Below, piece after piece: positions 39,678 to 64,000 of a stretch of 64,000 nt of DNA. A model generated the notes under the pieces. It did not search any database. It saw only the letters and a program-made list of their open reading frames with translations, and was not told the DNA's origin. Origin of the DNA: an uncultured Actinomycetota bacterium. Lineage in GTDB: Bacteria > Actinomycetota > Actinomycetes > Actinomycetales > Dermatophilaceae. The stretch covers positions 845,738 to 909,737 of the forward strand of contig CAWJTD010000001.1 of NCBI GenBank assembly GCA_963845815.1, given 5' to 3'. Both the position numbers and the translations under genes were made by a program. How positions within the stretch are numbered: position 1 is the stretch's first letter; every line of letters begins with the position of its first letter.

Positions 39678-39711
39678 GTCCTCGCTTCCGCCGCGGCGGC
39701 CGGCGCTGCCG

Positions 39712-42565: not shown

Positions 42566-43727
42566 CGCCCTGCTCGAGCTCGGCGCGATGGGTCCTCAGC
42601 TCACGGGCCCCGTTCACCCCGACCGCCGCGCACAGCCGTCCGGCCCGGTAGTACCGAACGACGAACTTCTCCTCGGCGTAGGACCCCCACACCAGCTCGC
42701 ACGCGTCGTGGCCCGCGAGGTGGCCGAACGACTGCAGGCGCAGGTCGAACTGGTCGGACCAGAAGTAGGGCGCCGCCGAGAGGGGAGCCTCGTCGGGCCG
42801 GCCCAGGATCAGCTTCGCCACCGCGCTGCCCTGCTCCCGGGCGAGGGTCCAGTGCTGGCCCCGCATTCCGGCTCGCCCGTGCGGGCCGGCCCAGCAGGCG
42901 ACGTCGCCGGCGGCATACACCCCGCTGACCGAGCTGCGCCCGCTCCGGTCGCACTGGACGCCGTCCCCCAGAGCCAGCCCGGACCCGGCGAGCCACTCGA
43001 TGTTGGGAGCCGTGCCCAGGCCGACGAGGACGACGTCGGCTGCCATCCGCCGGTCGTCCGCCAGCTCGACACAGACGCCGGCGTCCTCCTCATGGACCGC
43101 CCGGACCGCGACCCCGGCCTCGATCCGCACCCCGCGGCGGCGGTGGGCCTCGCCCAGGGCGTGCCCGACCTGCTCGCCGAGCACTCCGAAGAACGGCGAC
43201 GGCGCCGCCTCGACGATCGTGACCTCGACGCCGTGCTGGCTGGCCATCGCGGCGACCTCCGCGCCGACGAAGCCGCCGCCGACGACGAGCAGTCGCGCTC
43301 CGGGGACCAGCAGCCGGCGCATCGCGGACGCATCATCGACCCCGCGAAGGGTGAGCACCCGCTCGGAATGGACGCCCGGGAGGCTCCGGGCGCGTGCCCC
43401 GGTGGCGATGACCACGTGCTGCGCGGTGATGGTCCGACCGGACTCCAGGGACACCGTCCTCGCGGCTGGGTCGAGCGCTCTGGCTCCGTCGCCCAGGGCG
43501 AGCTCGACGTCCAGCACCTCATAGTGCGAGGCGGGACGCAGCTGCGCCTGGGTCGGCTCCCACCCGTCGGCGAGTGACTTCTTCGACAGCGGTGGCTTGT
43601 CGTACGGCAGGTGCCGCTGCGCGTCGACGAGCAGGATCGACCCGGTGAAACCACCCCGGCGCAGCTCCTCTGCCGCGGAGAGCCCGGCAATAGATGCCCC
43701 GACCACGGTCACGCCGTAGCTGTCCAT
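42549..43727 (-). CDS. Ferredoxin reductase (NAD(P)/FAD oxidoreductase)
   Basis: VGASIAG, PYDKPPLSK, GGGFVGAE, AAGDVA, PYFWSDQF. Confidence 0.92.
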   Translation of the reverse strand: MDSYGVTVVGASIAGLSAAEELRRGGFTGSILLVDAQRHLPYDKPPLSKKSLADGWEPTQAQLRPASHYEVLDVELALGDGARALDPAARTVSLESGRTITAQHVVIATGARARSLPGVHSERVLTLRGVDDASAMRRLLVPGARLLVVGGGFVGAEVAAMASQHGVEVTIVEAAPSPFFGVLGEQVGHALGEAHRRRGVRIEAGVAVRAVHEEDAGVCVELADDRRMAADVVLVGLGTAPNIEWLAGSGLALGDGVQCDRSGRSSVSGVYAAGDVACWAGPHGRAGMRGQHWTLAREQGSAVAKLILGRPDEAPLSAAPYFWSDQFDLRLQSFGHLAGHDACELVWGSYAEEKFVVRYYRAGRLCAAVGVNGARELRTHRAELEQGVSGAQ

Positions 43728-43756
43728 CGACGCTCCTGGTGGTGTCCGGCGTAGGG

Positions 43757-43981
43757 TCAGGCGCGAGCTGGGGTCTCGGCGTCGGAGACCGCCGTCGTGA
43801 TGGCCCAGGTCGGGCACAACCCGGCTGCCGTCTGCGCGTCGATGGCGAGCTGTCCGGTGAGGTCGTCCTGCCGCAGGAGCACGACGATGCCGTCGTCGTC
43901 CTGGTCGAAGACCCCGGGGGCGCTGCGAACGCAGTTGCCGGACCCGCAGCACTTGTCGTAGTCGACGGTGATCTGGATCAT
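43757..43981 (-). CDS. Ferredoxin (3Fe-4S type, P450 partner)
   Basis: VDYDKCCGSGNCVRSAPGVFDQ...CPTWAI. Confidence 0.92.
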   Translation of the reverse strand: MIQITVDYDKCCGSGNCVRSAPGVFDQDDDGIVVLLRQDDLTGQLAIDAQTAAGLCPTWAITTAVSDAETPARA

Positions 43982-44000
43982 CAGGCTCCTCCTCGAGGGC

Positions 44001-45254
44001 TCACCAGGTGAGCGGTAGGGCATGCAGCCCGTAGTTGGTGGTGTCCTTGCGGAAGGGCAGGTCGACGACGTCGGCGGTCAGGGCCAGGCTGGGGAACCTC
44101 CGGAAGATCTCCGACAGCCCGATCTGCATCTCCATCCGGGCCAGCGACTGTCCCATGCACTGGTGCGGGCCGAAGCCGAAGGCCAGGTGGCTGTTGACGT
44201 TCTCCCGGCCGACGTCGATCGAGCCCGCGTCGGCGAACTGCGAGTCGTCGTGGTTCGCGGCCCAGATCGAGACCATCACGCCTTCGCCCTGGTGGATCAG
44301 CTGCCCGCCGACCTCGACGTCCTCCAGGGCCAGCCGTCGCGGTCCTCCCCGGACGATGGAGTGATAGCGCAGCAGCTCCTCGGCGGCCGGTTCCCACAGT
44401 GCCGGGTCCGCGCTCAGCCGGTCCAGCTGGTCCGGGCTCTGCAGCAGCATGAGGATGCTCAGGGCGAGTGCACCGGCGGTGGTGTCATGTCCGGCGGAGA
44501 CGAGCAGCGTTGCGTACGAAGCGACTTCGTCCCGGGTGAGCTCTCCCTCGACCTGTTTCTGGACGAGGCGGGAGAGGATGTCGTCCTGCGGCTCCTTCTC
44601 CTTGCGCGCGGCCAGGGCAAGCATGTAGGAGCCCAGGTCGTCCAGCGCCGCGGTGACCTCGGCGGTGCTCGCGTGCCGGCTGGTCAGCCGCTGGGTGGCG
44701 TCCTGGAAGACCTCATGGTCGCTCTGCGGTATCCCCAGGAGCAGGCTGATCACGGTGGACGGGACCGACATGGCGAAGTCCCGGACGAAGTCCGCGGGCG
44801 GTCCCTGTCGCTCAATGGCGTCGAGGTGCTCGGTGATGATCCGTCGGACGTCGGGCTCGTGCAGCTGGACGTTCCTCGGCATGAAGTCCCGGGTGGTCAG
44901 CCTGCGCAGGCGCATGTGCTCCGGTTCGTCCATCCGGATGATCGAACGGGCGAAGGCCGCGGTGTCCCGGCCGGGCAGGCCGTAGACCGGGAAGCCGGGC
45001 TTGGTGGTGACCGAGCTGAACCTCGGGTCGCCGAGTACCGCCTTGACGTCGTCGTACCGGGTCAGCAGCCAGATCGGAGTCCCGTCGCCGAGAGCGACTC
45101 GGCTCACCGGGGTCAGGTCACGCAGCGCCGAGAACTCGGCCGGAGGCGCCATGGGGCAGGCCGCGGGAGGCTCGCTGGGCATCGGCGGGTGCGGCACCGG
45201 GCAGCCGGCCACTGTGGCGGCCGGGCCCACCGCGACGCGCTCTGGAGGAGTCAT
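44001..45254 (-). CDS. Cytochrome P450 (CYP105-like)
   Basis: MDEPEHMRLR, AGHDTT, EELLRY, FGFGPHQCMG. Confidence 0.95.
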   Translation of the reverse strand: MTPPERVAVGPAATVAGCPVPHPPMPSEPPAACPMAPPAEFSALRDLTPVSRVALGDGTPIWLLTRYDDVKAVLGDPRFSSVTTKPGFPVYGLPGRDTAAFARSIIRMDEPEHMRLRRLTTRDFMPRNVQLHEPDVRRIITEHLDAIERQGPPADFVRDFAMSVPSTVISLLLGIPQSDHEVFQDATQRLTSRHASTAEVTAALDDLGSYMLALAARKEKEPQDDILSRLVQKQVEGELTRDEVASYATLLVSAGHDTTAGALALSILMLLQSPDQLDRLSADPALWEPAAEELLRYHSIVRGGPRRLALEDVEVGGQLIHQGEGVMVSIWAANHDDSQFADAGSIDVGRENVNSHLAFGFGPHQCMGQSLARMEMQIGLSEIFRRFPSLALTADVVDLPFRKDTTNYGLHALPLTW

Positions 45255-45351
45255 ACTGATGTATTAGATCAGCGTGGATGGTGCAGATCCATGCGTGGGT
45301 CCGTAGGCTACTTGTCATGAACCGGTGTTCGCAGTCGTCGGTAGCCCGGCC

Positions 45352-46197
45352 ATGAGGCCGGCGCCGGATCCGCTCGCCGAGTCGACGTGGCTGGCGGCGC
45401 TGTCCCAGCCGGACAGCCGGCTGGACTTCGCCCTGTTCGGGTACGACACCGTGGTCCCGGACTGGGGGTTTCGCCAGCGGGTGCTGCCGGACCACCTGAT
45501 CTACCTGGTGGTCGACGGGTCCTGCACCGGGGACATCGACGGCGCACCCTTCGCGCTGTCGGCCGGCTCCCTCCTGTGGATGCAGCCCGGCGTGCGGCAT
45601 ACCTTCGAGGTGGGTCCGGGGCCCCGTCCGCCGACCCTGTACTTCGCCCGGTTCCGGCTCAGCGTGGCGGGGCGCGAGCTCGCCCTGGCGGACCGCCCCT
45701 TCCAGCACTGGGAGGCGGCCTGGGAGCTGCGCGAGCTGATGGACCAGCTCGTCGACGAGCTCGGCACCCAGCTGGCGCACCGGGAGCCACGGTTGCGGGG
45801 GCTGCTGCTTGCCATCTGCGCCGCAACCCTGCGGCACCGGGAGCCGCAGGCGGCCAAGACCGGGGCCGGCACGCTGAGCCGGGCCCAGCGGCAGGCCATC
45901 GAGAGCTACGTGCGACAGCACCTGTCCGCCCGGCTCACGCCGCGCGACCTCGCCGAGCACGTCCAGCTGTCCCATGACTACTTCTCCCGCCGCTTCGCCG
46001 TGACGTTCGGGATGCCGCCGCGGACGTGGCTGGTGCACACCCGCCTGCGGGGTGCGGCACGACGGCTGACCGACAGCATGCAGTCGATCTCCCAGATCGC
46101 CGCGGCGCTGGGCTATGAGGACGTCAGCGCCTTCAGCCACCAGTTCAGGCAGCGCTACGGACTCAGTCCGCGGGCCTATCGGCAGCAGCAGCGCTGA
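45352..46197 (+). CDS. AraC family transcriptional regulator
   Basis: N-terminal cupin; C-terminal double HTH (LSHDYFSRRF...IAAALGYEDVSAFSHQF). Confidence 0.9.
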   Translation: MRPAPDPLAESTWLAALSQPDSRLDFALFGYDTVVPDWGFRQRVLPDHLIYLVVDGSCTGDIDGAPFALSAGSLLWMQPGVRHTFEVGPGPRPPTLYFARFRLSVAGRELALADRPFQHWEAAWELRELMDQLVDELGTQLAHREPRLRGLLLAICAATLRHREPQAAKTGAGTLSRAQRQAIESYVRQHLSARLTPRDLAEHVQLSHDYFSRRFAVTFGMPPRTWLVHTRLRGAARRLTDSMQSISQIAAALGYEDVSAFSHQFRQRYGLSPRAYRQQQR

Positions 46198-46963
46198 GCC
46201 CGATCGAGGCGGTCCAGCCGCCGTCCGCGGTGACGCACGAGCCGGTGACGAAGCTCGCCGCGGGCGAGAGCAGGAAGAGCACCGGACCGACCATCTCCTG
46301 TGGTTCGGCTCGGCGGCCCATCGGGGTGCGGGCCTCGATCTCGGCCACCTCGAGGGCGCCGACGCCGATGGCCCGGTCCGTCATCGGGGTGCGAACGAAC
46401 CCGGGGCAGACCGCGTTGACCCGCACGCCGCGCGAAGCCCACTCGATGGCGAGCGTCCGGACCAGGCCGATCAGCCCGTGCTTGGAGGCCGAGTAGGCCA
46501 CCCGGTGGGCGAAGCCTGCGGTGCTGGTCAGGGAGCCCAGGTGCACGATGCTCCCGCTCCCGGCATCGAGCATGGCGCCGCCGACCTCCCGGGAGAGCCG
46601 GAAGGCACCGATGAGGTTGACGTCGAGCACCCGGGCGAACTCGTCGTCGCCGACCAGCTCGGCCGGGCCGATCCCGCTGACGCCGGACGCGTTGACCAGC
46701 CCGTCGAGCTTGCCGTGCCGGTCCAGGACGGAGCCGACCGCCCGCTGGAGCGAGACGGCGTCGGTGACGTCGAGGACCTGGGTGGCGATCTCGACCTCGG
46801 CCAGGTCGCTTCGGGCCAGCTCGCAGGTGCGGGCGAGCTCCTCCTGCCGGCGACCCGCGACGGTCACCCGGGCGCCCTCACCGGCCAGGGCCAGGGCAAC
46901 GGCTCGACCGATGCCCGAGCCGCCGCCGACGACCAGGACGTCCCGGTCGACGGACCCACTCAT
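46163..46963 (-). CDS. SDR family oxidoreductase
   Basis: GGGSGIG, LVNASG, YSASK, VNAVCPG. Confidence 0.92.
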   Translation of the reverse strand: MSGSVDRDVLVVGGGSGIGRAVALALAGEGARVTVAGRRQEELARTCELARSDLAEVEIATQVLDVTDAVSLQRAVGSVLDRHGKLDGLVNASGVSGIGPAELVGDDEFARVLDVNLIGAFRLSREVGGAMLDAGSGSIVHLGSLTSTAGFAHRVAYSASKHGLIGLVRTLAIEWASRGVRVNAVCPGFVRTPMTDRAIGVGALEVAEIEARTPMGRRAEPQEMVGPVLFLLSPAASFVTGSCVTADGGWTASIGLSAAAADRPAD

Positions 46964-47024
46964 GAGCCTCTCCTCATTGTCGTGGGTCCGTCGACCGGGG
47001 GCCTGGTGCGCCGTGGTCCGGCTG

Positions 47025-48104
47025 CTACTTCTTGCCGTCCCGGTACTTCTTGGCGCTCTGCAGGACACTCAGGCCCTTGTCGACCAGCGTGCCCACGTCG
47101 GGCTTGGTCTTGTAGACGCCCACCTCGACGAAGAAGTCGGACAGGTCGGTCAGGGTCTTCTTCGTGGTGCCGTCGGACATGTCACTGATGGCTTTGTCGA
47201 GGGTGACCCAGGTGCGGGACTTCAGGGTGTACTCCGCGCGGGCCTCGTTGGTGTCCAGACCGACGGACTTGTCGAACTCGACCATGTACTTGATCGCCTC
47301 GGCCGGGTGGTCGTTGACGTACTCGTTGGCCTTGTAGACCGCGCTGACGAAGCGGGCCGCAGCCTCGGGGTTGTCCTTGACGAACTTCGGCGTGACCATG
47401 TAGCTGCTGATGAAGGAGGCCTTGGCCATCGTCCCGTCACAGACCTTGGTGTACTGCGCGGTGTCCTGCACGAGGTCGTAGTCCGCAGCTGCGGCTGAGG
47501 TTCCGGCCGCGATCTGCTTGGCAGCGAGGGCCTGCCGGACCTGGGGCGGGTCGAGCGGGACGATCTGCAGCTCCTGCGGCTTGACGCCGAAGTGCTTGGC
47601 GCAGGCGAAGAGGAGGTTCTGGAAGGTGCTGTTGGCTCCGGTTCCCACCTTCTGCGTCCGCAGGACCTCCGCCGGCGTCGAGCCCTTGAGGGCGTCGTTG
47701 CGCATGAGCAGCTTGAGGTTGTTCTCCTCCTTGATGTGCGGGAAGGAGATCAGGCCCCACTTGTCGAACCCGCTCAGTGCCGGTGGCGCGCCGATCCAGC
47801 CGGCCTGCCAGTCCCCGGCGATACCGGCCGGGAGGGCGGCTGCCCCGCTGGCGGCATACTGGATGGTCACCTCGAGGTTGTTCTCCTTGAAGTAGCCGAG
47901 CTTGTTCGCCAGCCACAGCGGCATGGCGGTGTCGTCGGTCAGGCTGGACGCGGTGATCTTCGTGACCTCGGCCGGAGCTGCGGCGCCCCCGGTGGAGGTG
48001 CCGGCGCTGGTGGTGCCGCCACATGCGGTCAACGCGACGAGTCCTGCGACGCCAACGGTGGCGATACCCATACGGCGGCGCCAGCGGTCCTGGTTCATCC
48101 TCAT
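47025..48104 (-). CDS. ABC transporter substrate-binding lipoprotein (SsuA/THI5-like)
   Basis: Lipobox LTAC; SsuA/TauA-like fold; part of the operon with the ATPase and permeases. Confidence 0.85.
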   Translation of the reverse strand: MRMNQDRWRRRMGIATVGVAGLVALTACGGTTSAGTSTGGAAAPAEVTKITASSLTDDTAMPLWLANKLGYFKENNLEVTIQYAASGAAALPAGIAGDWQAGWIGAPPALSGFDKWGLISFPHIKEENNLKLLMRNDALKGSTPAEVLRTQKVGTGANSTFQNLLFACAKHFGVKPQELQIVPLDPPQVRQALAAKQIAAGTSAAAADYDLVQDTAQYTKVCDGTMAKASFISSYMVTPKFVKDNPEAAARFVSAVYKANEYVNDHPAEAIKYMVEFDKSVGLDTNEARAEYTLKSRTWVTLDKAISDMSDGTTKKTLTDLSDFFVEVGVYKTKPDVGTLVDKGLSVLQSAKKYRDGKK

Positions 48105-53335: not shown

Positions 53336-53412
53336 TGGTGGCCAGGGGCGGGGTCGAACCGCCGACCTTCCGATTTTCAGTCGGACGCTCGTACCAACTG
53401 AGCTACCTGGCC
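53336..53412 (-). tRNA. tRNA-Phe (GAA)
   Basis: Reverse complement GGCCAGGTAGCTCAGTTGG...TCCGA-CTGAAAA-TCGGA...GGTTCGACCCC...GGCCACCA; CCA encoded. Confidence 0.97.
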
Positions 53413-53598
53413 GAGTCTGCGGGTCATCGTGCGGGACCGGCGCAGACAGCAGGCCGGATCGCTCCGGCCGGGCCCGACTATACCCGAGTCGGGGCTGGCC
53501 CTCACGCCGCCCGGGCGAGTGCACGGATGACCTACGATCGATCGGTCCGAAGCGCCGGCGGGCCCTCCGCCGCCACGACAGGGAGCGGGATCGTCAGC

Positions 53599-54447
53599 AT
53601 GGGCATGACCAGGATCGGTGTCGTCGGGTGCGGCCTCATGGGCGCCGGGATCGCGGAGGTGTGCGCTCGAGCTGGGCTGGACGTCCTGGTCGTCGAGTCG
53701 AGCGAGACCGCCGCTGCGGCCGGCCGAAAACGCCTGGAGACCTCGCTGCACCGGGCCCAGGAGCGAGGCAAGGTCGCCAACGCCGAGGAGGTCCTGGCCA
53801 GGATCACCCTCGGCACCGACCTGGCCGCGCTCGCCGACCGCGAGCTGGTCATCGAGGCGATCATCGAGGACGAAGCCGCCAAGGTGGCGCTGTTCCGCCA
53901 GCTCGACGCGATCGTCACCTCCCCGGTTGCGATCCTCGCTTCGAACACCTCCTCGATCCCGATCATGAAGCTCGCCGTGGTCACCGAGCGGCCGAGCCAC
54001 GTCGTCGGCATCCACTTCTTCAACCCGGTGCCGGTGCTCTCGCTGGTCGAGCTCGTCCCCAGCCTGCTCACCGCCAAGGACACCACCGACCAGGCCCGGG
54101 TCTTCGTCGAGGAGACCCTCGGCAAGCACGCCATCGACTGCCAGGACCGGGCCGGCTTCGTCGTCAACGCCCTGCTCATCCCCTTCATCCTCAGCGCCAT
54201 CCGGATGCTCGAGTCCGGCTTCGCCACCGCCGAGGACATCGACCAGGGCCTGGTCCGCGGCGCCGCCCACCCGCAGGGACCCCTGGCCCTGGCCGACCTG
54301 ATCGGGCTGGACACGACCAAGGCGGTCGCCGAGTCGCTGTACGAGGAGTTCAAGGAGCCGCTGTATGCCGCCCCGCCGCTGCTCAACCGGATGGTCGACG
54401 CCGGACTGCTCGGGCGCAAGACCGGCCGCGGGTTCTATACCTACTGA
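53599..54447 (+). CDS. hbd: 3-hydroxybutyryl-CoA dehydrogenase
   Basis: GVVGCGLMGAGIA, EAIIE, ASNTSS, HFFNPVP, GFVVNALL, GRKTGRGFY. Confidence 0.93.
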   Translation: MGMTRIGVVGCGLMGAGIAEVCARAGLDVLVVESSETAAAAGRKRLETSLHRAQERGKVANAEEVLARITLGTDLAALADRELVIEAIIEDEAAKVALFRQLDAIVTSPVAILASNTSSIPIMKLAVVTERPSHVVGIHFFNPVPVLSLVELVPSLLTAKDTTDQARVFVEETLGKHAIDCQDRAGFVVNALLIPFILSAIRMLESGFATAEDIDQGLVRGAAHPQGPLALADLIGLDTTKAVAESLYEEFKEPLYAAPPLLNRMVDAGLLGRKTGRGFYTY

Positions 54448-54537
54448 CCGACCCTGGTGCCTGGCGGCAGCGACCGCCGCCGCCCGCCGTTCGCTACTTG
54501 AGGAACAATCCCGGTCGCCCGTAGGTTGGATCCTATA

Positions 54538-54552
54538 TACCCCGTGGGGGTA
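54538..54552. promoter_or_regulatory. CsoR operator TACCCC-GTG-GGGGTA
   Basis: Palindrome with G/C tracts 13 nt upstream of the csoR ATG; matches the CsoR/RicR-type TACC...GGTA box. Confidence 0.85.
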
Positions 54553-54565
54553 GGAAGGCGGCGAG

Positions 54566-54856
54566 ATGAGCGAGACGTACGGGTACCACGACACCAAGGA
54601 CAGTCACCTCAAGCGGCTGCGCCGCGTCGAGGGACAGGTGCGCGGACTGCAGCGGATGGTCGAGGGCGACGAGTACTGCATCGACATCCTCACCCAGGTC
54701 TCCGCAGCGACCAAGGCACTCCAGTCGTTCTCGCTCCTGCTGCTCGAGGAACACCTCGAGCACTGCGTCGTCGACGCCGCCCGACGCGGCGGCCCTGAGG
54801 CCCAGGAGAAGGTGCGCGAGGCCTCCGAGGCCATCGCCCGGCTCGTGCGGTCCTGA
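54566..54856 (+). CDS. csoR: Copper-sensing repressor CsoR/RicR
   Basis: RLRRVEGQVRGL.RMV...YCIDILTQ...HLEHC (Cys-His-Cys Cu ligands). Confidence 0.92.
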   Translation: MSETYGYHDTKDSHLKRLRRVEGQVRGLQRMVEGDEYCIDILTQVSAATKALQSFSLLLLEEHLEHCVVDAARRGGPEAQEKVREASEAIARLVRS

Positions 54857-54899
54857 CCCAGTTCCCCTCCGCATCACCGACAGCACCAGAGGAGCAACG

Positions 54900-55115
54900 A
54901 TGAGCAACCAGACCTACCAGGTGACCGGGATGACCTGTGAGCACTGCGTGAGCGCGGTGACCGACGAGCTCCAGGCCGTCGCGGGAGTCCGTGACGTCGC
55001 GGTCACCCTCGTCGCCGGCGGGGCGTCCACCGTCACCGTCGAGAGCGAACGCGAGCTGAGCTCCGACGAGGTCGCGACCGCTCTCGACGAGGCGGGCGAC
55101 TACTCCCTCGCCTGA
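54900..55115 (+). CDS. copZ: Copper chaperone (HMA domain)
   Basis: VTGMTCEHCV. Confidence 0.92.
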   Translation: MSNQTYQVTGMTCEHCVSAVTDELQAVAGVRDVAVTLVAGGASTVTVESERELSSDEVATALDEAGDYSLA

Positions 55116-55159
55116 GCCGCGTCGACGGCGGGCGGCACGGGTACGGCATACTCGCGTCC

Positions 55160-55519
55160 GTGGAGAGACGCTGGCCCGGCTGGGTCTACGCCAAGGGCGA
55201 CGAACCCGACCCCCGCTTCTCGTTCGCCAACGAACGCACGTTCCTGGCCTGGATCCGCACCGCACTGGCCCTGTTGGCGGCCGGGGTCGCCCTGCACGCG
55301 ATCCCGCTGCAGATCTCCGCGCGGGCCCGCGACGCGCTGTCCCTGGTCTTCATCGTCCTCGGCATCGTCGCCTCGACCGCCGGCTGGCTTCGCTGGGCCC
55401 GATCGGAACGGGCGATGCGGCTGAACCTCCCGCTGCCCGGCCTGGCCCTCGGGGCGGTTCTCGGGATCGCGCTCGTGGCCGCCGGGGTGGCGTTGCTCGC
55501 GATCCTCGTGCTCGGCTGA
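55160..55519 (+). CDS. YidH / DUF202 membrane protein
   Basis: DPRFSFANERTFLAWIRT. Confidence 0.9.
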   Translation: MERRWPGWVYAKGDEPDPRFSFANERTFLAWIRTALALLAAGVALHAIPLQISARARDALSLVFIVLGIVASTAGWLRWARSERAMRLNLPLPGLALGAVLGIALVAAGVALLAILVLG

Positions 55520-55523
55520 CCCG

Positions 55524-55865
55524 ATGGGCAGCCACCCCTGGGACCCGTCGCTCAGTGACCGCGACCCCGGGCTGCAACCGGAGCGGACCGCCCTGGCCTG
55601 GCAACGGACGGCGCTGTCGATGGCGGCGGCTGCGGCCATCGTCGCCCGGCTGACCGTCGGCCGGCTCGGGGTGATCACCCTGATCGTCCTGGCGTTCTGC
55701 CTCGCCCACGCGGCCGTGCTCTTCCGCAACTCCCGGCGCCGGTATGACGCGCGCACCGGTGCCGCGTCGCACCAGCCCCGTGCCGTCGGGGTGCACGGGG
55801 CGCTGCTGGGCCTGCAGGTCATCCTGCTGGCGATGCTCGAGCTGCTCTCGATCGCGAGCGGCTGA
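55524..55865 (+). CDS. DUF202 membrane protein
   Basis: DPGLQPERTALAWQRT. Confidence 0.88.
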   Translation: MGSHPWDPSLSDRDPGLQPERTALAWQRTALSMAAAAAIVARLTVGRLGVITLIVLAFCLAHAAVLFRNSRRRYDARTGAASHQPRAVGVHGALLGLQVILLAMLELLSIASG

Positions 55866-55933
55866 GGGCAGCACGGCCAGCCCGTGCGTGGCAGGCCCGC
55901 CCGACGAGGACCTGCCGGACGAGGACCGCACGC

Positions 55934-55967
55934 GGAAGGCCCGCACCCCACGGGGCACGGGCCTTCC
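55934..55967. terminator. Hairpin terminator between the DUF202 genes and tRNA-Asp (possibly bidirectional)
   Basis: GGAAGGCCCG (55934-55943) pairs with CGGGCCTTCC (55958-55967). Confidence 0.7.
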
Positions 55968-55975
55968 TTCTCGAG

Positions 55976-56049
55976 CGACCCCGACCGGGCTCGAACCGGC
56001 GACCTCCGCCGTGACAGGGCGGCGCGCTAACCAACTGCGCTACGGGGCC
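55976..56049 (-). tRNA. tRNA-Asp (GTC)
   Basis: Reverse complement GGCCCCGTAGCGCAGTTGG...CCGCC-CTGTCAC-GGCGG...GGTTCGAGCC...GGGGTCG; CCA not encoded. Confidence 0.96.
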
Positions 56050-56078
56050 TGGGTTGGTGCAGGCCTTGCGTTACTGCG

Positions 56079-56151
56079 TATCCCCAACGGGATTCGAACC
56101 CGTGCTGCCGCCGTGAAAGGGCGGAGTCCTAGGCCGCTAGACGATGGGGAC
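56079..56151 (-). tRNA. tRNA-Glu (TTC)
   Basis: Reverse complement GTCCCCATCGTCTAGCGG...CCGCC-CTTTCAC-GGCGG...GGTTCGAATCC...GGGGATA; CCA not encoded. Confidence 0.96.
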
Positions 56152-59401: not shown

Positions 59402-59552
59402 CGGTTGGTCGGTCCTCCGTCGCGTGGCCCCCCACGGTTGGTCCATCGGACACCCTAGACGACTGAAGGGCCAGAACCCACCCTCGACGCTCCGAAACGA
59501 GGTCAGCCGCTGCGGCTGGATCCCGATGCCGCGTGCACGGCAGGCTGTGCCC

Positions 59553-60278
59553 ATGCCCGACCCTGGACCCCATCGTCAGACTCCGGACGTCGTCGTGTGG
59601 CTGTATCGGCATCACGAGGGTGCCGAGGTCGACACGAGCGAGCTGGCGGGGGACGAGCTGGAGCACGCTGGACGATTCCGGCGGCAACGCGACGCGAGCG
59701 GGTTTCTTGCTCGGCGCGCACTGCGGCGTCGGGTACTGGGCCGACATCTTGGCCTTCCCGGCGGGGACCTCGACTTCGCCACCCGATGCGGGCGGTGCGG
59801 TTCCGCCGAGCACGGCCGACCGGCTGTTCACGGTGTCCCGAGCCTCACCTTTTCGACGTCCAGCGTCTGGGTTGAGCCTCGTCGCGCTCACGTCATGGCC
59901 CTGAGCATCGCCGGGGACGGGGTGGATGTGGGCGTCGACCTGGCGGTCACGGAGGACGCCGACGAGCTAGAGCCCTCAGTGGTCCTCGCGCCGGACGAGG
60001 TCCTGAGCCCCCGCGGCATGGTGGAGACGTGGACCGCCAAGGAGGCGATGCTCAAGCTGGCCGGGGTAGGGCTGAGCGTTGATCCACACGAACTTGTGGC
60101 GTTTCCCTCCGTGCACAGCGTGAACGGCATAACGCCGTCGACCTCGCCGCGGTTGGCCTGGCTCGACTGGGGCGGCGCGGTGCTGTGTATCGCGCATTCG
60201 GGCGCGCCGGAGCGGAGCTGGTCGTGGCGACCGTCAGGCGCGCCGTCCGGGTACGCCCTGCTGGTCCTGGGTCGCTAG
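59553..60278 (+). CDS. Sfp-type 4'-phosphopantetheinyl transferase
   Basis: CGRCGSAEHGRP, VGVDL, WTAKEAMLK; start uncertain (59526 or 59553). Confidence 0.85.
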   Translation: MPDPGPHRQTPDVVVWLYRHHEGAEVDTSELAGDELEHAGRFRRQRDASGFLARRALRRRVLGRHLGLPGGDLDFATRCGRCGSAEHGRPAVHGVPSLTFSTSSVWVEPRRAHVMALSIAGDGVDVGVDLAVTEDADELEPSVVLAPDEVLSPRGMVETWTAKEAMLKLAGVGLSVDPHELVAFPSVHSVNGITPSTSPRLAWLDWGGAVLCIAHSGAPERSWSWRPSGAPSGYALLVLGR

Positions 60279-61465
60279 GCGGCGCTGAGCCGCATCGGCA
60301 ACCGCTCGATGCCACGGACGAAGGTCGACCGGGTAGGAACCACCTCGCCGGTCACCTCCATGGTCCGCACGCGACTAAGCAACGCCTCGGTGAACACGGC
60401 GATCTCGCGCCGAGCCAGCTCGGCACCGAGGCAGAAGTGCGCGCCCACGCCGAACGCGACGTGCCGCCGACCGTGTGGGGCGATGTCGAAGCTGTCGGGG
60501 TCGGTGAAGGCGCGCTCGTCGCGGTTCGCTGAAGAGTTCCACAGGGCCACTCGATCGCCTCGACGGATGCGCACGTCGTGCAGGTGGAGATCTTCGCGCG
60601 CCGTGCGCATCATGTGCACCGCCGGGGAGGTCCACCGGATGATCTCCTCGGTCGCGCTGCGCAGCAGGCTCGGGTCGGCGCGTAACCGACGGAGCTGATC
60701 GGGGTGCTCCAGCAGGGCGAGGATGCCGCCCACCATGGCGTGCCGGGTGGTCTCGTTGCCGCCGGTGAGCAGCCCATCACAGTTGAGCAGGAACGAGTCC
60801 AGCGCCTCCGGCGTCCCGTCCAAGCCTGCGGCCAGCATCGAGACCAGGTCGTCGCGGGGCTCACGGCGACGTTCCGCGGCGAGCTCCTCGTAGTAGCTGA
60901 GGATCTCGGCGTGCGCCAGCGTCTGCTCATGGACCGACCCGGTCTGCTCGTCCGGAGCGCGGAAGACCACCTTCGTCAGCGAGAGCAGTCGCGGGTGATC
61001 CGCCTCCGGGATCCCCATCAGCCAGCAGATCATCCGCACGGGCAGGTCGCCGGCGACGCTGACGAGGTCGCAATCCCCGGCCTCGAGGGCAAGGTCAAGA
61101 GACCTGGCCACCTCCGACCTCATCCGACCGGTCAGGACGTCCAGGGAGCGCGGCGTGAATACCGAGCTCATGGTGCTGCGCATCTGGGTGTGGCGAGGTG
61201 GGTCGGTGACGACGAGCATCTTTCCTGCCGCAGCCGCGTTCGCCGCACGCGGAGCATCGATGCGCACCCCTCGCTCCGAGGTCCATCGCCGCGGGTCCCG
61301 ATAGACAGCGGAGACGTCAGCGTGCCGGGTCAGCGACCAGAATCTCGTGGCCGGGTCCCCGGCGGGACGGTATACCGGAGCTCGACTGCGCAGTTCTCGC
61401 CAAATCTCGTGCGGTTCGCCAAGTCGATGGAGCGCCGGGTCCGTCAGGTCGAGGTATGGGTCCAC
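60275..61465 (-). CDS. Cytochrome P450, OxyD/NovI/NikQ-like (carrier-protein-dependent)
   Basis: TDPPRH, NCDGLLTGGNETTRH, EEIIRWTSP, FGVGAHFCLG. Confidence 0.9.
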   Translation of the reverse strand: MDPYLDLTDPALHRLGEPHEIWRELRSRAPVYRPAGDPATRFWSLTRHADVSAVYRDPRRWTSERGVRIDAPRAANAAAAGKMLVVTDPPRHTQMRSTMSSVFTPRSLDVLTGRMRSEVARSLDLALEAGDCDLVSVAGDLPVRMICWLMGIPEADHPRLLSLTKVVFRAPDEQTGSVHEQTLAHAEILSYYEELAAERRREPRDDLVSMLAAGLDGTPEALDSFLLNCDGLLTGGNETTRHAMVGGILALLEHPDQLRRLRADPSLLRSATEEIIRWTSPAVHMMRTAREDLHLHDVRIRRGDRVALWNSSANRDERAFTDPDSFDIAPHGRRHVAFGVGAHFCLGAELARREIAVFTEALLSRVRTMEVTGEVVPTRSTFVRGIERLPMRLSAA

Positions 61466-61468
61466 CGG

Positions 61469-63295
61469 TCAGTCCTGGGATCGCACGGTGATCAGTCGAG
61501 CGGCGTCCCGCAGGACCGGGTGCTCCAGGAGGGCGGCCACAGGTAGGTCCAGTCCGTGGCGGGTTCGCAGTTCTCCGACCACCCGGGCCGCTGCGAGGGA
61601 GTGCCCCCCGAGCTCATCGAACCTGTCCTCGGCGCGGACGCCGTTGACCCCCAGCACGCGTTGCCAGGCCAGGGCCATGTCCCTCTCCGCGACCGTCAGG
61701 TCGTCAGCACCAGCCATTGGCGCAGGCGCCGGTGAGGTCGCGACGCGTCCCCGCAGCGCGTCCCGGTCGACCTTGCCATGGGCGGTCAGCGGCAAGTCGG
61801 ACGTGATGTGGACCCGGGATGGCACGAAGCTCTCAGGCAGGCGCTTGCGAGCAAAGATCCTCAACCCCCGCGGATCAAGGACCGCGTGGTCGCGGGGGAT
61901 GACGTGGGCCGTCAGGTGCTGCCCCCCATCGTGCTCCGGGCCGATCACCACGGCGGCGTGCGCGAGGTCCGGATGCTCGGCCAGGACTGCCTCCACCTCC
62001 TCCAGCTCGACGCGGTGGCCGCGCACCTTGACCTGCAGGTCACGTCTGCCGACGTACTCGAGCAGGCGGTCCGCCCGCTCACGCACGAGATCACCGGTGC
62101 GGTACAGCCGCTGTGGTTCCGCGCTCCGTGCCGGTCCTTCGACGAACCGCTCGCTCGTCAGCTCCGGTTGCCCGAGGTAGCCCTGGGCCAGGCCCACGCC
62201 TCCGACGTACAGCTCACCGACGACCCCGCGCCGCACTCGCCGTCCGTCGTCGTCCAGCACATGGACGGTCACGCCGGGTATGGGGCCGCCGATGGGGACG
62301 CGGTCGCGGACAGCAGCGCCGTGGGGGACGTGAAAGGCGGTGGCCCAGATGGTCGTCTCCGTGGGGCCGTAGAGGTTGAAGAACGCCACCCGACTGGCAA
62401 AACGGCGGGCCAGCTCGGGTGGGCACGACTCACCAGCACTGGCAACAAGCCGCAGGTCCTCGCCCAGGTGCTCATCGCCGAGAACGGCGAGCGTGGTCGG
62501 CGGAAGCACCATGGCGGTGATCCCCCGGCTCCGGATCAGGGCAGCCAGCTCCGGTCCGGGCAGGAGCGCTCTTCGGTCGGCGAACTGGATACTCGCTCCG
62601 CTGCCGAGGGCAAGGACGACCTCGAAGATGGAGGCGTCGTATCCCGGTGAGGAGAACTGCAGCACTCGGTCGCCGTGGCCGAGTGCGAACATGGATCGCT
62701 GGACCTCCATCACGTTGGTCAGCCCAGCGTGGGTGAGGACGACCCCTTTGGGTCGCCCGGTCGACCCCGAGGTGTAGATGAGGTACGCCGGGTCGATGCC
62801 GGTGACGTCGGCCGGTGAGGGGGTGAGGTCTCGACCGTTCGGGTCGGCAGGTTCATCGCTGGGGTGAATAACAGGTGGGCAGAGAGAGGCGGTTGCGGTC
62901 AGTGATCGAGCCAGGCCGGCAAGTTCGGGTGCTGCCAGCAGGACTCGCGGTTGCGCGTCATCGAGCATGAAGCGCAGCCGGTCAGCGGGATAGGCGGGAT
63001 CGAGGGGGAGGTAAACCGCCCCGAGTCGGCCAATGCCCAGGAGTGCCGCGGCGAGATCGACGCTCGGCGGAAACAATGACGCGACGACGTCCCCGGGGCG
63101 TACCCGCGCCTCAGCGAGCAGGGCGCTGATCTCAGCGGCCCGGTGTTCCAGCTGGGCATAGGTCAGCGCTCGGTGGTCATCCTGCGCCGCGAGCCCTCGG
63201 GGGGTGATTGCTCCCTGGCGCGTGACCGCGGTGGTCCACGGCCGGGAGGCACTGGCTTGAGAGGGTGGGGTGGATGGCGCATACGTCGAAGTCAT
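61469..63295 (-). CDS. Stand-alone NRPS adenylation-thiolation (A-T) didomain
   Basis: YTSGSTGRPKG, YDASIFE, NLYGPTE, YRTGD, QVKVRGHRVELEE, PCP motif GGHSL; no C or TE domain. Start may extend to 63346. Confidence 0.93.
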   Translation of the reverse strand: MTSTYAPSTPPSQASASRPWTTAVTRQGAITPRGLAAQDDHRALTYAQLEHRAAEISALLAEARVRPGDVVASLFPPSVDLAAALLGIGRLGAVYLPLDPAYPADRLRFMLDDAQPRVLLAAPELAGLARSLTATASLCPPVIHPSDEPADPNGRDLTPSPADVTGIDPAYLIYTSGSTGRPKGVVLTHAGLTNVMEVQRSMFALGHGDRVLQFSSPGYDASIFEVVLALGSGASIQFADRRALLPGPELAALIRSRGITAMVLPPTTLAVLGDEHLGEDLRLVASAGESCPPELARRFASRVAFFNLYGPTETTIWATAFHVPHGAAVRDRVPIGGPIPGVTVHVLDDDGRRVRRGVVGELYVGGVGLAQGYLGQPELTSERFVEGPARSAEPQRLYRTGDLVRERADRLLEYVGRRDLQVKVRGHRVELEEVEAVLAEHPDLAHAAVVIGPEHDGGQHLTAHVIPRDHAVLDPRGLRIFARKRLPESFVPSRVHITSDLPLTAHGKVDRDALRGRVATSPAPAPMAGADDLTVAERDMALAWQRVLGVNGVRAEDRFDELGGHSLAAARVVGELRTRHGLDLPVAALLEHPVLRDAARLITVRSQD

Positions 63296-63682
63296 GAGCG
63301 TCCTTGGATTGGCCTCAGTGCAGGCGAAGGTCACCTGATCGTTCATCTGTCAATCACTAGCCAACGCACGTATGCCAAGAAAGTCACGGTATATGGACCG
63401 TAAAGCGAGTCAAACATTCGTAAAATCAGTATGGAAGTGGACAAGAACGACTGTGTAAGACGATGTTTCCCGGTATTTACGGTGAAAACTGCCGGTTTCG
63501 TGGCAATACCTCGCATTTCCATGCTGCTCTGGTCGCGCAGAGTCGGCAGGCCGTCTGTCGGCGGGCGGTCAGCGGCGGACACAGACCAGGCACCGCTCGA
63601 GTCGAACTGGACAGCGACTCGGGCGGTGCCTGCTGTGCGTCTCGGACTGATTGACACCGCACCGGGCCTTCGGAATGCTCCA

Positions 63683-64000
63683 GTGGTGAACCGCTCGGGC
63701 AGGCCAGCGCCGGGCCTGCCGCTGTTGCTGCCGTTCGTCCTCGTCTCGTTCGCGGCCAACTCGCTCATCACGCGACACGTGGTCCAGCAGGACCTGCTCG
63801 ACGCCGGTCTGCTGACCGGAGTGCGGTTCCTCGCCGGAGCCGTCGCGCTGGTGGCCCTGGCCGTGGCGATGCGTGAGCGACCGCGCCTCGGACGAGCCAA
63901 CGTCGTGCCCGCCCTGTGGCTCGGGATCTATGCCGTCTGCATCTCCTACGGCTACCGGTATATCGGGGCGGCGGCCGGGACCTTCGTCTTCTACGCGTCG
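63683..64000 (+). CDS. EamA/DMT family transporter, partial (runs off right edge)
   Basis: My translation from GTG 63683: ..LLLPFVLVSFAANSLITRH..LLTGVRFLAGAVAL..ISYGYRYIGAAAG, open to the end of the window. Confidence 0.8.
   Translation, partial: MVNRSGRPAPGLPLLLPFVLVSFAANSLITRHVVQQDLLDAGLLTGVRFLAGAVALVALAVAMRERPRLGRANVVPALWLGIYAVCISYGYRYIGAAAGTFVFYAS

What the first reader, a model, noticed from the sequence alone, without database searches (positions are those of the whole stretch)
59553..64000. Minimal NRPS-independent-style cassette: A-T didomain + OxyD-like P450 + PPTase + EamA exporter
Seen: stand-alone A-T with GGHSL, a P450 3 bp downstream with NCD..LxGGNETT, a convergent Sfp-type PPTase, and a divergent EamA gene. 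Established: NovH/NovI, NikP1/NikQ and OxyD systems beta-hydroxylate a PCP-bound amino acid. My reading of the Stachelhaus positions is D-A-F-V-A-A-L-I-W-K, aromatic-like (Phe/Tyr type) but unusual. No C domain, thioesterase or ketoreductase is in the window, so the release step and final product are unexplained. It may be a small hydroxylated aromatic amino acid derivative from a new cluster that continues to the right.
Basis: partly seen in the sequence, partly recalled or inferred. Interest (0 to 1): 0.68.

Follow-up and report, generated by a model that had tools for sequence, protein, structure and literature searches.

The report
Carrier-bound amino acid hydroxylation cassette
Three adjacent genes in a high-GC soil bacterium look like a small, ordinary kit that loads an amino acid onto a carrier protein and oxidises it there with a P450; the amino acid and the fate of the product are unknown.

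Summary

- **A-T didomain** (61469-63346, minus strand): it has all core motifs and the GGHSL serine.
- **P450** (60275-61465, minus strand): it starts 3 bp after the A-T stop codon. Its closest natural solved structures are P450sky and OxyD.
- **Sfp-type PPTase** (59553-60278, plus strand): convergent with the P450. Sequence evidence is weak, but the predicted fold supports the call.
- **EamA gene** (from 63686, plus strand): divergent, and only its first 105 codons lie in the window.

That code matches no substrate I could assign. It recurs in unrelated NRPS modules, and "aromatic" is only weakly favoured.

The best reading is a NovH/NovI-, BpsD/OxyD- or Qui18/Qui15-type cassette that β-hydroxylates an amino acid while it is tethered to the carrier. 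This one brings its own PPTase.

The three core genes have no relative above about 50% identity in any collection searched, and their GC3 is slightly lower than that of most neighbouring genes. The left flank is housekeeping. The EamA gene has 72-80% identical relatives in 20 loci, and none of the 29 loci checked carries the cassette, so its link to the cassette is adjacency only.

No C domain, TE, MbtH or hydrolase lies in the window, and the right flank could not be recovered. This is a new member of a known kind, of modest interest.

The parts
59553..60278 (+). Sfp-type (group II) 4'-phosphopantetheinyl transferase, 241 aa. An alternative in-frame ATG lies at 59526. It has the HGRP and WTAKEAMLK motifs and a metal triad of the Asp-Xxx-Glu type (D129, A131, E164).
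   Evidence: Pfam ACPS scores 19.6 bits, below its cut-off. All 13 homologues carry PF01648 and are 28-40% identical. The alignment shows that the Glu of VGVDLE, near-invariant in the homologues, is Ala here. The AF2 model has pLDDT 78.6 and its best fold match is Sfp 4MRT at E 5e-8. The middle residue of the triad is reported to be non-essential (PMC4103896). Codon-position GC is 0.76/0.54/0.80, which is coding-like. The protein database returned no identical entry for this ORF, so the source annotation probably did not call it (inference).
60275..61465 (-). Cytochrome P450, 396 aa, GTG start. It belongs to the P450sky/OxyD group of P450s that oxidise amino acids tethered to a peptidyl carrier protein.
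   Evidence: Pfam p450 E 1.2e-21. PDB scores: P450sky 4L0E 306 bits, OxyD 3MGX 236 bits, natural CYP124/125 only 186-223 bits, and the reconstructed ancestor CYP125MRCA 311 bits. Identity is 40.8% to P450sky and 36.4% to OxyD. At 42 positions where P450sky and OxyD agree with each other but differ from CYP125MRCA, this protein has the P450sky/OxyD residue 22 times and the CYP125 residue 8 times. The NJ tree places it on the P450sky/OxyD side. Its start lies 3 bp after the A-T stop codon.
61469..63346 (-). Stand-alone NRPS adenylation-thiolation (A-T) didomain, 625 aa, or 608 aa from the likelier ATG at 63295. The specificity code is DAFVAALIWK. The carrier serine sits in LGGHSL at 61595-61612.
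   Evidence: Pfam AMP-binding, AMP-binding_C and PP-binding; TIGR01733 scores 411.7 bits, above its cut-off. The code was confirmed against 1AMU numbering. No C, E or TE domain is present. The nearest relatives are at most 47-48% identical in all collections.
63347..63685 (.). Divergent intergenic region between the A-T and EamA genes. It is AT-rich for this genome and contains a 27-nt inverted repeat at 63578-63641.
   Evidence: Sequence. Inverted repeat I1 is 85% complementary. As RNA, 63560-63700 folds at -77.3 kcal/mol, z = -4.3 against shuffles. No Rfam family matches.
63686..64000 (+). First 105 codons of an EamA/DMT-family membrane transporter, cut off by the end of the window. It is a neighbour of the cassette and has not been shown to belong to it.
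   Evidence: Pfam EamA scores 18.1 bits, below its cut-off. 225 representative proteins match at E <= 1e-3, the best at 80% identity. Five full-length relatives each have two EamA stretches. None of the 29 loci with relatives carries the cassette.

Best explanation
This is a small module for modifying an amino acid while it is attached to a carrier protein. It is the same kind of system as NovH/NovI, BpsD/OxyD, NikP1/NikQ and Qui18/Qui15.

Proposed steps, all inferred from homology and gene arrangement:
1. The PPTase converts the T domain of the A-T protein to its holo form, at the serine of GGHSL.
2. The A domain adenylates one L-amino acid and loads it as a thioester onto its own T domain. 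The substrate is probably hydrophobic, aromatic or large aliphatic, but the code DAFVAALIWK cannot yet be assigned.
3. The translationally coupled P450 docks on the loaded T domain and oxidises the tethered residue, most likely by hydroxylating the β-carbon. Electrons would come from a ferredoxin and reductase encoded elsewhere.
4. The modified residue is then hydrolysed off, or passed on, by an enzyme that is not in the window.

The three genes look like a compact unit, possibly acquired, lying between housekeeping genes and an unrelated transporter gene. No step has been shown biochemically.
For: - The domain content and motifs of the A-T protein are intact.
- The P450 start codon lies 3 bp after the A-T stop codon, with an AGGA sequence upstream.
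- P450sky and OxyD are the closest natural solved P450 structures. Both act on aminoacyl-PCP substrates (literature).
- The P450 shares the OxyD I-helix motif LLNCDxxLxGGNETTRHA, the TSExG motif and the PAxH motif. At 22 of 42 discriminating positions it has the P450sky/OxyD residue, against 8 with the CYP125 residue.
- In the NJ tree it sits with P450sky and OxyD (67 sequences) and not with the CYP125-like group (53 sequences).
- The closest P450 relatives (45-49% identity) lie in NRPS clusters. In Micromonospora sp. LH3U1 one lies directly after a C-A-T module whose code is the near-identical DAFTIALIWK.
- The PPTase fold is Sfp-type and the essential Asp and Glu are retained. One PPTase homologue also lies convergent to an NRPS gene.
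- Qui15 hydroxylates only Trp loaded on Qui18, not free Trp, which shows the mechanism for this architecture (PMC3578932).
- The left flank is housekeeping, so the unit begins at about 59.5 kb.
- GC3 of the three genes is 0.79-0.84, against a mean of about 0.87 for the other ORFs in the window.
Against: - No thioesterase, hydrolase, C domain, MbtH-like protein, ferredoxin or tailoring gene is in the window, so the pathway as seen is incomplete.
- The P450 is as similar to a reconstructed CYP125 ancestor (44%) as to P450sky (41%). The published list of 23 fingerprint residues for aminoacyl-PCP P450s could not be obtained.
- The NJ tree has no support values, and this protein is the earliest branch on its side of the tree.
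- The A-domain substrate is unassigned.
- Relatives of this P450 group also carry out other chemistry, for example dehydrogenation by P450Sas.
Confidence: 0.6

Rival explanations
1. The architecture is the same, but the chemistry differs. The P450 acts on the tethered residue without β-hydroxylating it. Possible reactions include α,β-dehydrogenation, ring hydroxylation, N-oxidation or a coupling reaction.
For: P450Sas (WS9326) dehydrogenates a carrier-bound substrate, and the P450 domain of BsmF hydroxylates the ring of PCP-bound Tyr. The P450 here is only 36-41% identical to the characterised β-hydroxylases and branches early in the tree.
Against: It keeps the canonical acid-alcohol pair (GGNETT), which P450Sas lacks. 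It also shares the OxyD-type I-helix motif and other residues specific to the P450sky/OxyD group.
Confidence: 0.15
2. One reading: a larger, new NRPS-type cluster continues to the right of the window, and the EamA protein is its exporter.
For: The cassette lacks a release enzyme and any downstream enzymes, and the window ends 315 bp into the next gene. In the known systems, A-T/P450 pairs usually lie inside larger clusters.
Against: The EamA gene has relatives at 72-80% identity over the fragment in 20 loci (L087-L102, L107, L108). None of the 29 loci checked has the A-T gene, the PPTase gene or a close P450 copy, and the neighbours of the EamA gene differ from locus to locus. The 59 kb to the left holds no other NRPS motif. 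The right flank itself could not be read.
Confidence: 0.3
3. The cassette is an orphan remnant. The three genes are what is left of a lost or transferred cluster and make no useful product in this organism.
For: No partner genes are visible. No relative above about 50% identity exists anywhere. GC3 is lower than in most neighbouring genes. The source annotation shortened the P450 to 330 aa and apparently missed the PPTase gene.
Against: All catalytic motifs in all three proteins are intact, there are no frameshifts or internal stop codons, and the A-T and P450 genes remain translationally coupled.
Confidence: 0.1
4. The P450 is a CYP125/124-like hydroxylase of a free lipid or sterol, and its position next to the A-T gene is coincidental.
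For: The top PDB score is to a reconstructed CYP125 ancestor (311 bits, 44% identity). Many database relatives at about 40% identity are labelled cholest-4-en-3-one 26-monooxygenase.
Against: Natural CYP125 and CYP124 structures score only 186-223 bits, against 306 for P450sky. The tree places it on the P450sky/OxyD side. The gap to the A-T gene is 3 bp. No lipid or sterol catabolic genes are adjacent.
Confidence: 0.05

Closest known systems
BpsD / OxyD / Bhp (β-hydroxytyrosine supply in balhimycin and vancomycin biosynthesis)
   Same: A stand-alone A-T didomain is paired with a separate P450 that hydroxylates the tethered residue. OxyD shares the I-helix motif LLNCDxxLxGGNETTRHA and is 36% identical over its full length.
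   Different: BpsD-type Tyr domains use Tyr codes of the DASTxAAVCK kind (my own knowledge; such codes occur in stand-alone A-T homologues P0004, P0042 and P0069). The code here is DAFVAALIWK. No Bhp-like hydrolase and no glycopeptide genes are present. A PPTase gene is attached to this cassette.
P450sky (Sky32, CYP163B3) of skyllamycin biosynthesis
   Same: It is the closest natural solved structure (306 bits, 41% identity, aligned end to end). It hydroxylates the β-carbon of PCP-bound Phe, O-methyl-Tyr and Leu.
   Different: P450sky works in trans on modules of a large assembly line. The partner here is a dedicated stand-alone A-T protein encoded 3 bp upstream.
Qui18 / Qui15 / Qui5 (also Ecm13/Ecm12 and TioK/TioI): β-hydroxytryptophan for quinoxaline chromophores
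   Same: The system is an A-T didomain plus a P450. In vitro, the P450 accepts only the carrier-loaded amino acid (PMC3578932).
   Different: The Qui18 code is DAWTVTGVGK. Qui18 needs the MbtH-like protein Qui5, and no MbtH gene is in the window. No tryptophan dioxygenase or thioesterase genes are present here.
NovH / NovI (aminocoumarins) and NikP1 / NikQ (nikkomycin)
   Same: The same two-enzyme logic applies: β-hydroxylation of Tyr or His on a dedicated carrier (cited; details are from my own knowledge).
   Different: No NovJ/K-type oxidoreductases and no thioesterase are present.
Micromonospora sp. LH3U1 locus L082 (uncharacterised): MbtH, A-T, C-A-T, P450, C
   Same: It is the closest available pairing. 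The A domain has the code DAFTIALIWK (42% identity) and is followed directly by a P450 that is 45% identical to this one.
   Different: There the A domain is part of a C-A-T elongation module in a multi-gene NRPS with MbtH and C domains. Here it is a free A-T with no C domain nearby.

Membership tests
Stand-alone A-PCP loading didomains paired with a P450 (NovH, BpsD, NikP1 and Qui18 type) | AMP-binding, AMP-binding_C and PP-binding domains in one protein, with no C domain | tested here: met
   Pfam and TIGR01733 score above their cut-offs. No Condensation domain hit was found, and the only HHxxxDG match in the window lies at 34.3 kb.
Stand-alone A-PCP loading didomains paired with a P450 (NovH, BpsD, NikP1 and Qui18 type) | Intact catalytic motifs A1-A10 and the carrier serine (GGxS) | tested here: met
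   LTYAQL, YTSGSTGRPKG, YDAS, NLYGPTE, GELYVGGVGLAQGYL, YRTGDL, GRRDLQVKVRGHRVELEEVE, HGKVDR and LGGHSL were read from the translation.
Stand-alone A-PCP loading didomains paired with a P450 (NovH, BpsD, NikP1 and Qui18 type) | A P450 gene of the aminoacyl-PCP hydroxylase group lies next to it in the same operon | tested here: met
   The gap is 3 bp on the same strand.
Stand-alone A-PCP loading didomains paired with a P450 (NovH, BpsD, NikP1 and Qui18 type) | A release enzyme (thioesterase or hydrolase) or follow-on enzymes are encoded nearby | tested here: not met
   None is present in 59 kb to the left or in the 650 bp to the right. The result is open because the window ends at 64000.
Stand-alone A-PCP loading didomains paired with a P450 (NovH, BpsD, NikP1 and Qui18 type) | A specificity code that can be assigned to a known substrate (Tyr, His or Trp in the known cases) | tested here: not met
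   DAFVAALIWK differs from the Qui18 code and from Tyr- and Phe-type codes. No paper in the library contains this code or five close variants, and no adenylation paper contains ALIWK.
Stand-alone A-PCP loading didomains paired with a P450 (NovH, BpsD, NikP1 and Qui18 type) | Self-loading of the amino acid onto the protein's own carrier domain | not testable with these tools
   This needs an ATP-PPi exchange or hydroxamate assay and intact-protein mass spectrometry.
Aminoacyl-PCP β-hydroxylating P450s (OxyD, P450sky, NovI, NikQ, Qui15) | P450 core: heme-ligand Cys loop, ExxR motif, and the I-helix acid-alcohol pair | tested here: met
   FGVGAHFCLG, EEIIRW and GGNETT are present.
Aminoacyl-PCP β-hydroxylating P450s (OxyD, P450sky, NovI, NikQ, Qui15) | Groups with characterised members rather than with other P450 families | tested here: met
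   P450sky scores 306 bits and OxyD 236 bits, against 186-223 bits for natural CYP124/125. The NJ tree places it on the P450sky/OxyD side, but without bootstrap support and as the earliest branch.
Aminoacyl-PCP β-hydroxylating P450s (OxyD, P450sky, NovI, NikQ, Qui15) | The 23 conserved fingerprint residues in 6 regions described for stand-alone P450s acting on PCP-bound amino acids | tested here: inconclusive
   The fingerprint is mentioned in PMC8161544, but the residue list could not be obtained. As a proxy, at 42 positions where P450sky equals OxyD but differs from CYP125MRCA, this protein has the P450sky/OxyD residue 22 times and the CYP125 residue 8 times. These include TSExG, LNC, GG and PAxH.
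Aminoacyl-PCP β-hydroxylating P450s (OxyD, P450sky, NovI, NikQ, Qui15) | Activity on the carrier-bound amino acid and not on the free amino acid, giving the 3-hydroxy product | not testable with these tools
   This needs in vitro reconstitution.
Group II (Sfp-type) 4'-phosphopantetheinyl transferases | A two-lobed pseudo-dimer fold of about 230 aa | tested here: met
   The AF2 model has pLDDT 78.6. The top Foldseek hits are Sfp, AASDHPPT, PcpS, PptAb and PptT, aligned over the full length, with TM-scores of 0.45-0.59. AcpS-type enzymes match only half of the model.
Group II (Sfp-type) 4'-phosphopantetheinyl transferases | Pfam ACPS (PF01648) scores above its gathering threshold | tested here: not met
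   The score is 19.6 bits against 25. All 13 database homologues do carry PF01648.
Group II (Sfp-type) 4'-phosphopantetheinyl transferases | Metal-binding triad Asp-(Glu/Xxx)-Glu and the W/F-x-K-E-A/S-x-x-K motif | tested here: met
   D129 lies in VGVDLA and E164 in WTAKEAMLK. The middle residue is Ala, where 10 of the 11 aligned homologues have Glu. The literature reports that the first and third residues are essential and the second is not (PMC4103896).
EamA / DMT transporters, taken as part of the cassette | Two EamA repeats (about 10 transmembrane helices) | tested here: inconclusive
   Only 105 aa are visible and Pfam is below threshold. Five full-length relatives, 48-80% identical to the fragment, each have two EamA stretches.
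EamA / DMT transporters, taken as part of the cassette | Conserved co-occurrence with the A-T, P450 and PPTase genes | tested here: not met
   None of the 29 loci with EamA relatives (L087-L115) has the A-T or PPTase gene. Three have a P450 match nearby: unrelated ones at 33-36% identity in L102 and L104, and a 59-aa C-terminal fragment at 49% in L094.

The most novel reading that the evidence does not exclude
The three genes form a self-sufficient island consisting of a PPTase, an A-T didomain and a P450. It makes a carrier-tethered oxidised amino acid of a specificity class that has not been deciphered (DAF[V/T]xALIWK). That product is used outside any NRPS assembly line, for example as a donor to a non-NRPS acceptor, or it is released as a free β-hydroxy amino acid. 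Solving the substrate would at the same time decode a signature that recurs in many uncharacterised NRPS modules from Streptomyces, Micromonospora and uncultured soil bacteria.
Probability: 0.1. Interest if true: 0.55.

Novelty: new member of a known kind. Interest (0 to 1): 0.3.

Why it matters
In kind, this is an ordinary biosynthetic building block. A-T/P450 pairs that hydroxylate tethered amino acids have been known for many years. Two things give it modest value.

- **An undeciphered code.** The A-domain code DAFVAALIWK belongs to a signature, DAF[V/T]xALIWK, found in 24 of 112 of the closest A domains. Those domains fall into several separate sequence clusters, and I could find no substrate assignment for the signature. 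A small soluble A-T protein is a convenient way to decode it, and the result would carry over to many NRPS clusters.
- **A compact, divergent cassette.** It comes from an uncultured soil bacterium, is below 50% identical to anything else, and carries its own PPTase. That makes it easy to express in a heterologous host as a three-gene unit.

Tried and rejected
- **Recovering the right flank.** Exact-protein look-ups for the A-T protein, the P450 and the database's own 608-aa form all failed. The one genome-contig scan returned only distant NRPS genes, at most 48% identical, so the source genome is not in that collection. An exact 47-nt search of metagenome contigs found nothing. Public soil-metagenome runs do hold the sequence, but only as short unitigs, and no letters beyond position 64000 are shown.
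- **Assigning the code from the literature.** Searches for the exact code, for five variants, for ALIWK and for LIWK found nothing useful, and the held PARAS supplement has no match.
- **Assigning the code by sequence clustering.** The domain is a singleton and is nearly equidistant from all groups.
- **Assigning the code from gene context.** Of four modules with the same or a near-same code, only one has an adjacent P450.
- **Looking for the same cassette elsewhere.** None was found among 76 A-domain loci or 29 EamA loci.
- **A disabled PPTase.** I considered that the Glu-to-Ala change in VGVDLE disables the enzyme. I rejected this because that residue is reported to be non-essential.
- **A mobile-element origin.** No flanking direct repeats or integrase were found. 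The nearest tRNA genes are 3.4 kb away, beyond an ECF sigma factor operon.
- **A riboswitch in the leader of the EamA or A-T gene.** No Rfam family matched.


Full report
**The observation**

The window has about 70% GC.

The ORF at 61469-63346 (-) encodes 625 aa. Pfam finds AMP-binding (260.5 bits), AMP-binding_C and PP-binding domains, and the protein passes the NCBIfam amino-acid-adenylation model TIGR01733 (411.7 bits, cut-off 317.4). The translation shows every core motif from A1 to A10 and the carrier motif LGGHSL. There is no condensation, epimerisation or thioesterase domain. The protein database holds this protein as a 608-aa form that starts at the ATG at 63295. That ATG has an AAGGA sequence upstream, so it is the likelier start.

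The next ORF, 60275-61465 (-), is a 396-aa cytochrome P450. The junction reads TGA CCG GTG, so its start codon lies 3 bp after the A-T stop. It has the heme loop FGVGAHFCLG, an ExxR motif, and the I-helix LLNCDGLLTGGNETTRHA.

A 241-aa ORF at 59553-60278 (+) converges on the P450. The two TAG stop codons overlap in a CTAG at 60275-60278.

Beyond a 340-bp AT-rich spacer, a divergent ORF starts at 63686 and runs off the end of the window after 105 codons.

Short-read unitigs from four soil-metagenome runs cover most of the region, with best matches at 99% identity or more. The assembly is therefore sound, and the source is a soil organism.

**The PPTase**

Sequence evidence alone is thin. Pfam ACPS scores 19.6 bits, below its threshold of 25, and Sfp scores 17.7 bits. 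Three further results support the call:
- All 13 database homologues carry PF01648.
- In the alignment, the HGRP motif, the VGVD motif and WTAKEAMLK are conserved.
- An AlphaFold model (pLDDT 78.6, pTM 0.79) finds Sfp best (4MRT, E 5e-8). Human AASDHPPT, PcpS, PptAb and PptT follow, all over the full length, whereas AcpS-type enzymes match only half of the model.

The Glu of VGVDLE is near-invariant in the homologues and is Ala here. A mutational study of group II PPTases reports that the first Asp and third Glu of the metal triad are essential and that the middle residue is not (PMC4103896). The substitution is therefore not evidence of inactivity. One homologue lies convergent to an NRPS gene, as this one does.

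**The P450**

Among solved structures the top score goes to a reconstructed ancestor, CYP125MRCA (311 bits). P450sky follows at 306 bits and OxyD at 236 bits. Natural CYP124, CYP125 and CYP142 enzymes score only 175-223 bits.

Identities over the full length are 44% to CYP125MRCA, 40.8% to P450sky and 36.4% to OxyD. At the 42 positions where P450sky and OxyD agree with each other but differ from the CYP125 ancestor, the window's protein has the P450sky/OxyD residue 22 times and the CYP125 residue 8 times. These positions include TSExG, LNC, the GG of the I-helix and PAxH.

A neighbour-joining tree of 120 sequences splits into two sides. One side, of 67 sequences, holds this protein, P450sky, OxyD and the NRPS-linked relatives. 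The other, of 53 sequences, holds the CYP125 ancestor and the proteins labelled cholest-4-en-3-one 26-monooxygenase. The tree has no support values, and this protein is the earliest branch on its side.

The nearest database relatives are only 45-49% identical. All three whose context I read sit in NRPS clusters.

The literature describes this group as P450s that dock on the carrier domain and hydroxylate the β-carbon of the tethered amino acid. For the A-T/P450 pair Qui18/Qui15, only the loaded amino acid is a substrate. A published set of 23 fingerprint residues defines the group. I could not obtain the list, so that membership test remains open.

**The A domain and its code**

HMMER alignment of the pocket segment to GrsA-PheA (1AMU), which carries the reference numbering, gives D235, A236, F239, V278, A299, A301, L322, I330 and W331. 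The A10 lysine comes from HGKVDR.

I could not assign it to a substrate:
- It differs from the Trp code of Qui18, DAWTVTGVGK.
- It differs from the Tyr-type codes (DASTxAAVCK) that are common in the stand-alone A-T homologues.
- No paper in the library contains the code or its close variants.

Mapping the same ten positions onto the 120 best homologues shows a recurrent signature, DAF[V/T]xALIWK. In the set of 112 homologues long enough to map, 24 end in ALIWK, and two C-A-T modules have the identical code (P0031, and P0047 from Streptomyces castrisilvae). These domains fall into several separate sequence clusters, so the signature looks convergent. That suggests a real and fairly common substrate.

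The context of four such modules was read. One is followed directly by a P450 that is 45% identical to ours (Micromonospora sp. LH3U1). The other three are ordinary NRPS or NRPS-PKS modules without a nearby P450.

The evidence on substrate class is weak and mixed:
- The pocket segment scores best against the Phe domains GrsA and TycA (54 and 51 bits), but Lys-specific Pls reaches 50.
- The whole domain is a singleton. It is 44% identical to the signature family, 42% to Tyr and Phe types, and 40% to Gly types.
- From my own knowledge of published codes, the LIWK tail is typical of Gly and Cys codes, and DAF- begins the Val, Ile and Leu codes.

I conclude that the substrate is probably a hydrophobic amino acid and that "aromatic" is unproven.

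**The surroundings**

To the left lie a small membrane protein, an ECF sigma factor with a putative anti-sigma partner, a PolX-like PHP protein, three tRNA genes, two DUF202 proteins, a CsoR-type repressor, a 3-hydroxyacyl-CoA dehydrogenase and ABC transporter genes. All are housekeeping genes.

A motif scan of all six frames of the 64 kb finds no second A or T domain, no PPTase beyond the one described, and no MbtH. The only HHxxxDG match is at 34.3 kb. The cassette therefore begins at about 59.5 kb.

GC3 of the three genes is 0.79-0.84. The other ORFs in the window average about 0.87, and most confident genes are at 0.84-0.95. This is a mild hint of foreign origin or low expression. No flanking repeats or integrase were found.

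**The EamA gene**

Unlike the three core genes, the 105-aa EamA fragment has many close relatives. The best is 80% identical, and 37 representative proteins match at E <= 1e-10. Five full-length relatives each carry two EamA stretches.

I fetched 29 loci that contain such relatives. Several have 10-kb flanks, and one comes from an assembled genome. None contains the A-T gene, the PPTase gene or any gene from the window's left flank. Three have a P450 match nearby: unrelated ones at 33-36% identity in two loci, and a 59-aa fragment at 49% in a third. The neighbours of the EamA gene differ from locus to locus.

The transporter is thus an ordinary gene of this lineage that happens to lie beside the cassette. 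Its role as the cassette's exporter is unsupported. Its relatives also give no clue to what lies to the right of position 64000.

**How it most likely works**

The following steps are inferred, not shown:
1. The PPTase primes the carrier serine of the A-T protein.
2. The A domain activates one amino acid and loads it onto its own carrier domain.
3. The translationally coupled P450 binds the loaded carrier and hydroxylates the β-carbon, with electrons from a ferredoxin system encoded elsewhere. A ferredoxin reductase lies beside a second, unrelated P450 at 42.5-45.3 kb.
4. The product is released or handed on by an enzyme not seen in the window.

The main uncertainties are the substrate, the exact oxidation chemistry and the downstream fate of the product.

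**Comparison with known systems and verdict**

In architecture and likely mechanism this matches the BpsD/OxyD, NovH/NovI, NikP1/NikQ and Qui18/Qui15 systems. It differs in four respects:
- It has an unassigned specificity code.
- It has its own PPTase.
- It has no visible release or follow-on enzyme and no MbtH gene.
- It is below 50% identical to any sequence in the collections searched.

It is a new member of a known kind. Its main practical interest is as a small, expressible system for decoding the DAF[V/T]xALIWK signature.

Noticed in passing
window 63578-63641: A 27-nt inverted repeat (85% complementary, 10-nt loop) lies 45 bp upstream of the EamA start codon. As RNA, 63560-63700 folds at -77.3 kcal/mol (z = -4.3). 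No Rfam family matches. It could be a leader hairpin or attenuator, or a protein-binding palindrome.
   Followed up: partly
window 60275-60278: The P450 and PPTase genes converge so tightly that their TAG stop codons overlap in the palindrome CTAG. There is no room for a terminator, so the two transcripts must overlap in antisense.
   Followed up: partly
window 59553-61465: The protein database holds the P450 only as a 330-aa form that starts at V67, although homologues align from residue 5. It returned no identical entry for the PPTase ORF. The source annotation therefore seems to have shortened one gene and missed the other.
   Followed up: partly
window 42549-47068: A second, unrelated P450 (44001-45254, -) lies next to a ferredoxin reductase (42549-43952, -), an AraC regulator (45325-46197, +) and an SDR (46163-47068, -). 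This looks like a catabolic P450 system. Its reductase is the only candidate redox partner seen in the window.
   Followed up: no
window 53336-56151: Three tRNA genes lie on the minus strand: Phe-GAA (53336-53412), Asp-GTC (55975-56049) and Glu-TTC (56078-56151). They are 3.4-6 kb to the left of the cassette. The tRNA-Phe gene lies inside the longest ORF for the 3-hydroxyacyl-CoA dehydrogenase, so that gene must start further downstream.
   Followed up: no
proteins P0003-P0103; loci L081-L084: The A-domain signature DAF[V/T]xALIWK recurs in 24 of 112 of the closest homologues. They come from Streptomyces, Micromonospora, Cellulomonas and uncultured soil bacteria and fall into several separate sequence clusters. 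No substrate assignment could be found, so this appears to be an undeciphered but common specificity class.
   Followed up: partly
L082 7943-15808 (Micromonospora sp. LH3U1): A compact uncharacterised NRPS locus has the order MbtH, A-T (code DIFAGGGVAK), C-A-T (DAFTIALIWK), P450 (45% identical to the window's P450) and a free C domain. It is the closest available analogue of the A-domain/P450 pairing.
   Followed up: partly
L102 5863-7753 and L094 95-1103: In two metagenome contigs an EamA orthologue (about 70% identical to full-length EamA P0254 of L087) is followed by a convergent P450. That P450 is 33% identical to the window's P450 in L102. L094 holds only a 59-aa C-terminal fragment, 49% identical.
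   Followed up: no
window 19787-24076 and 38682-41253: A 1429-aa GH38 α-mannosidase-like protein with an NPCBM-associated domain lies on the minus strand. Further right, a radical SAM protein (38682-39677) is followed by a PMT_2 glycosyltransferase-like membrane protein (39712-41253). Neither is related to the finding.
   Followed up: no
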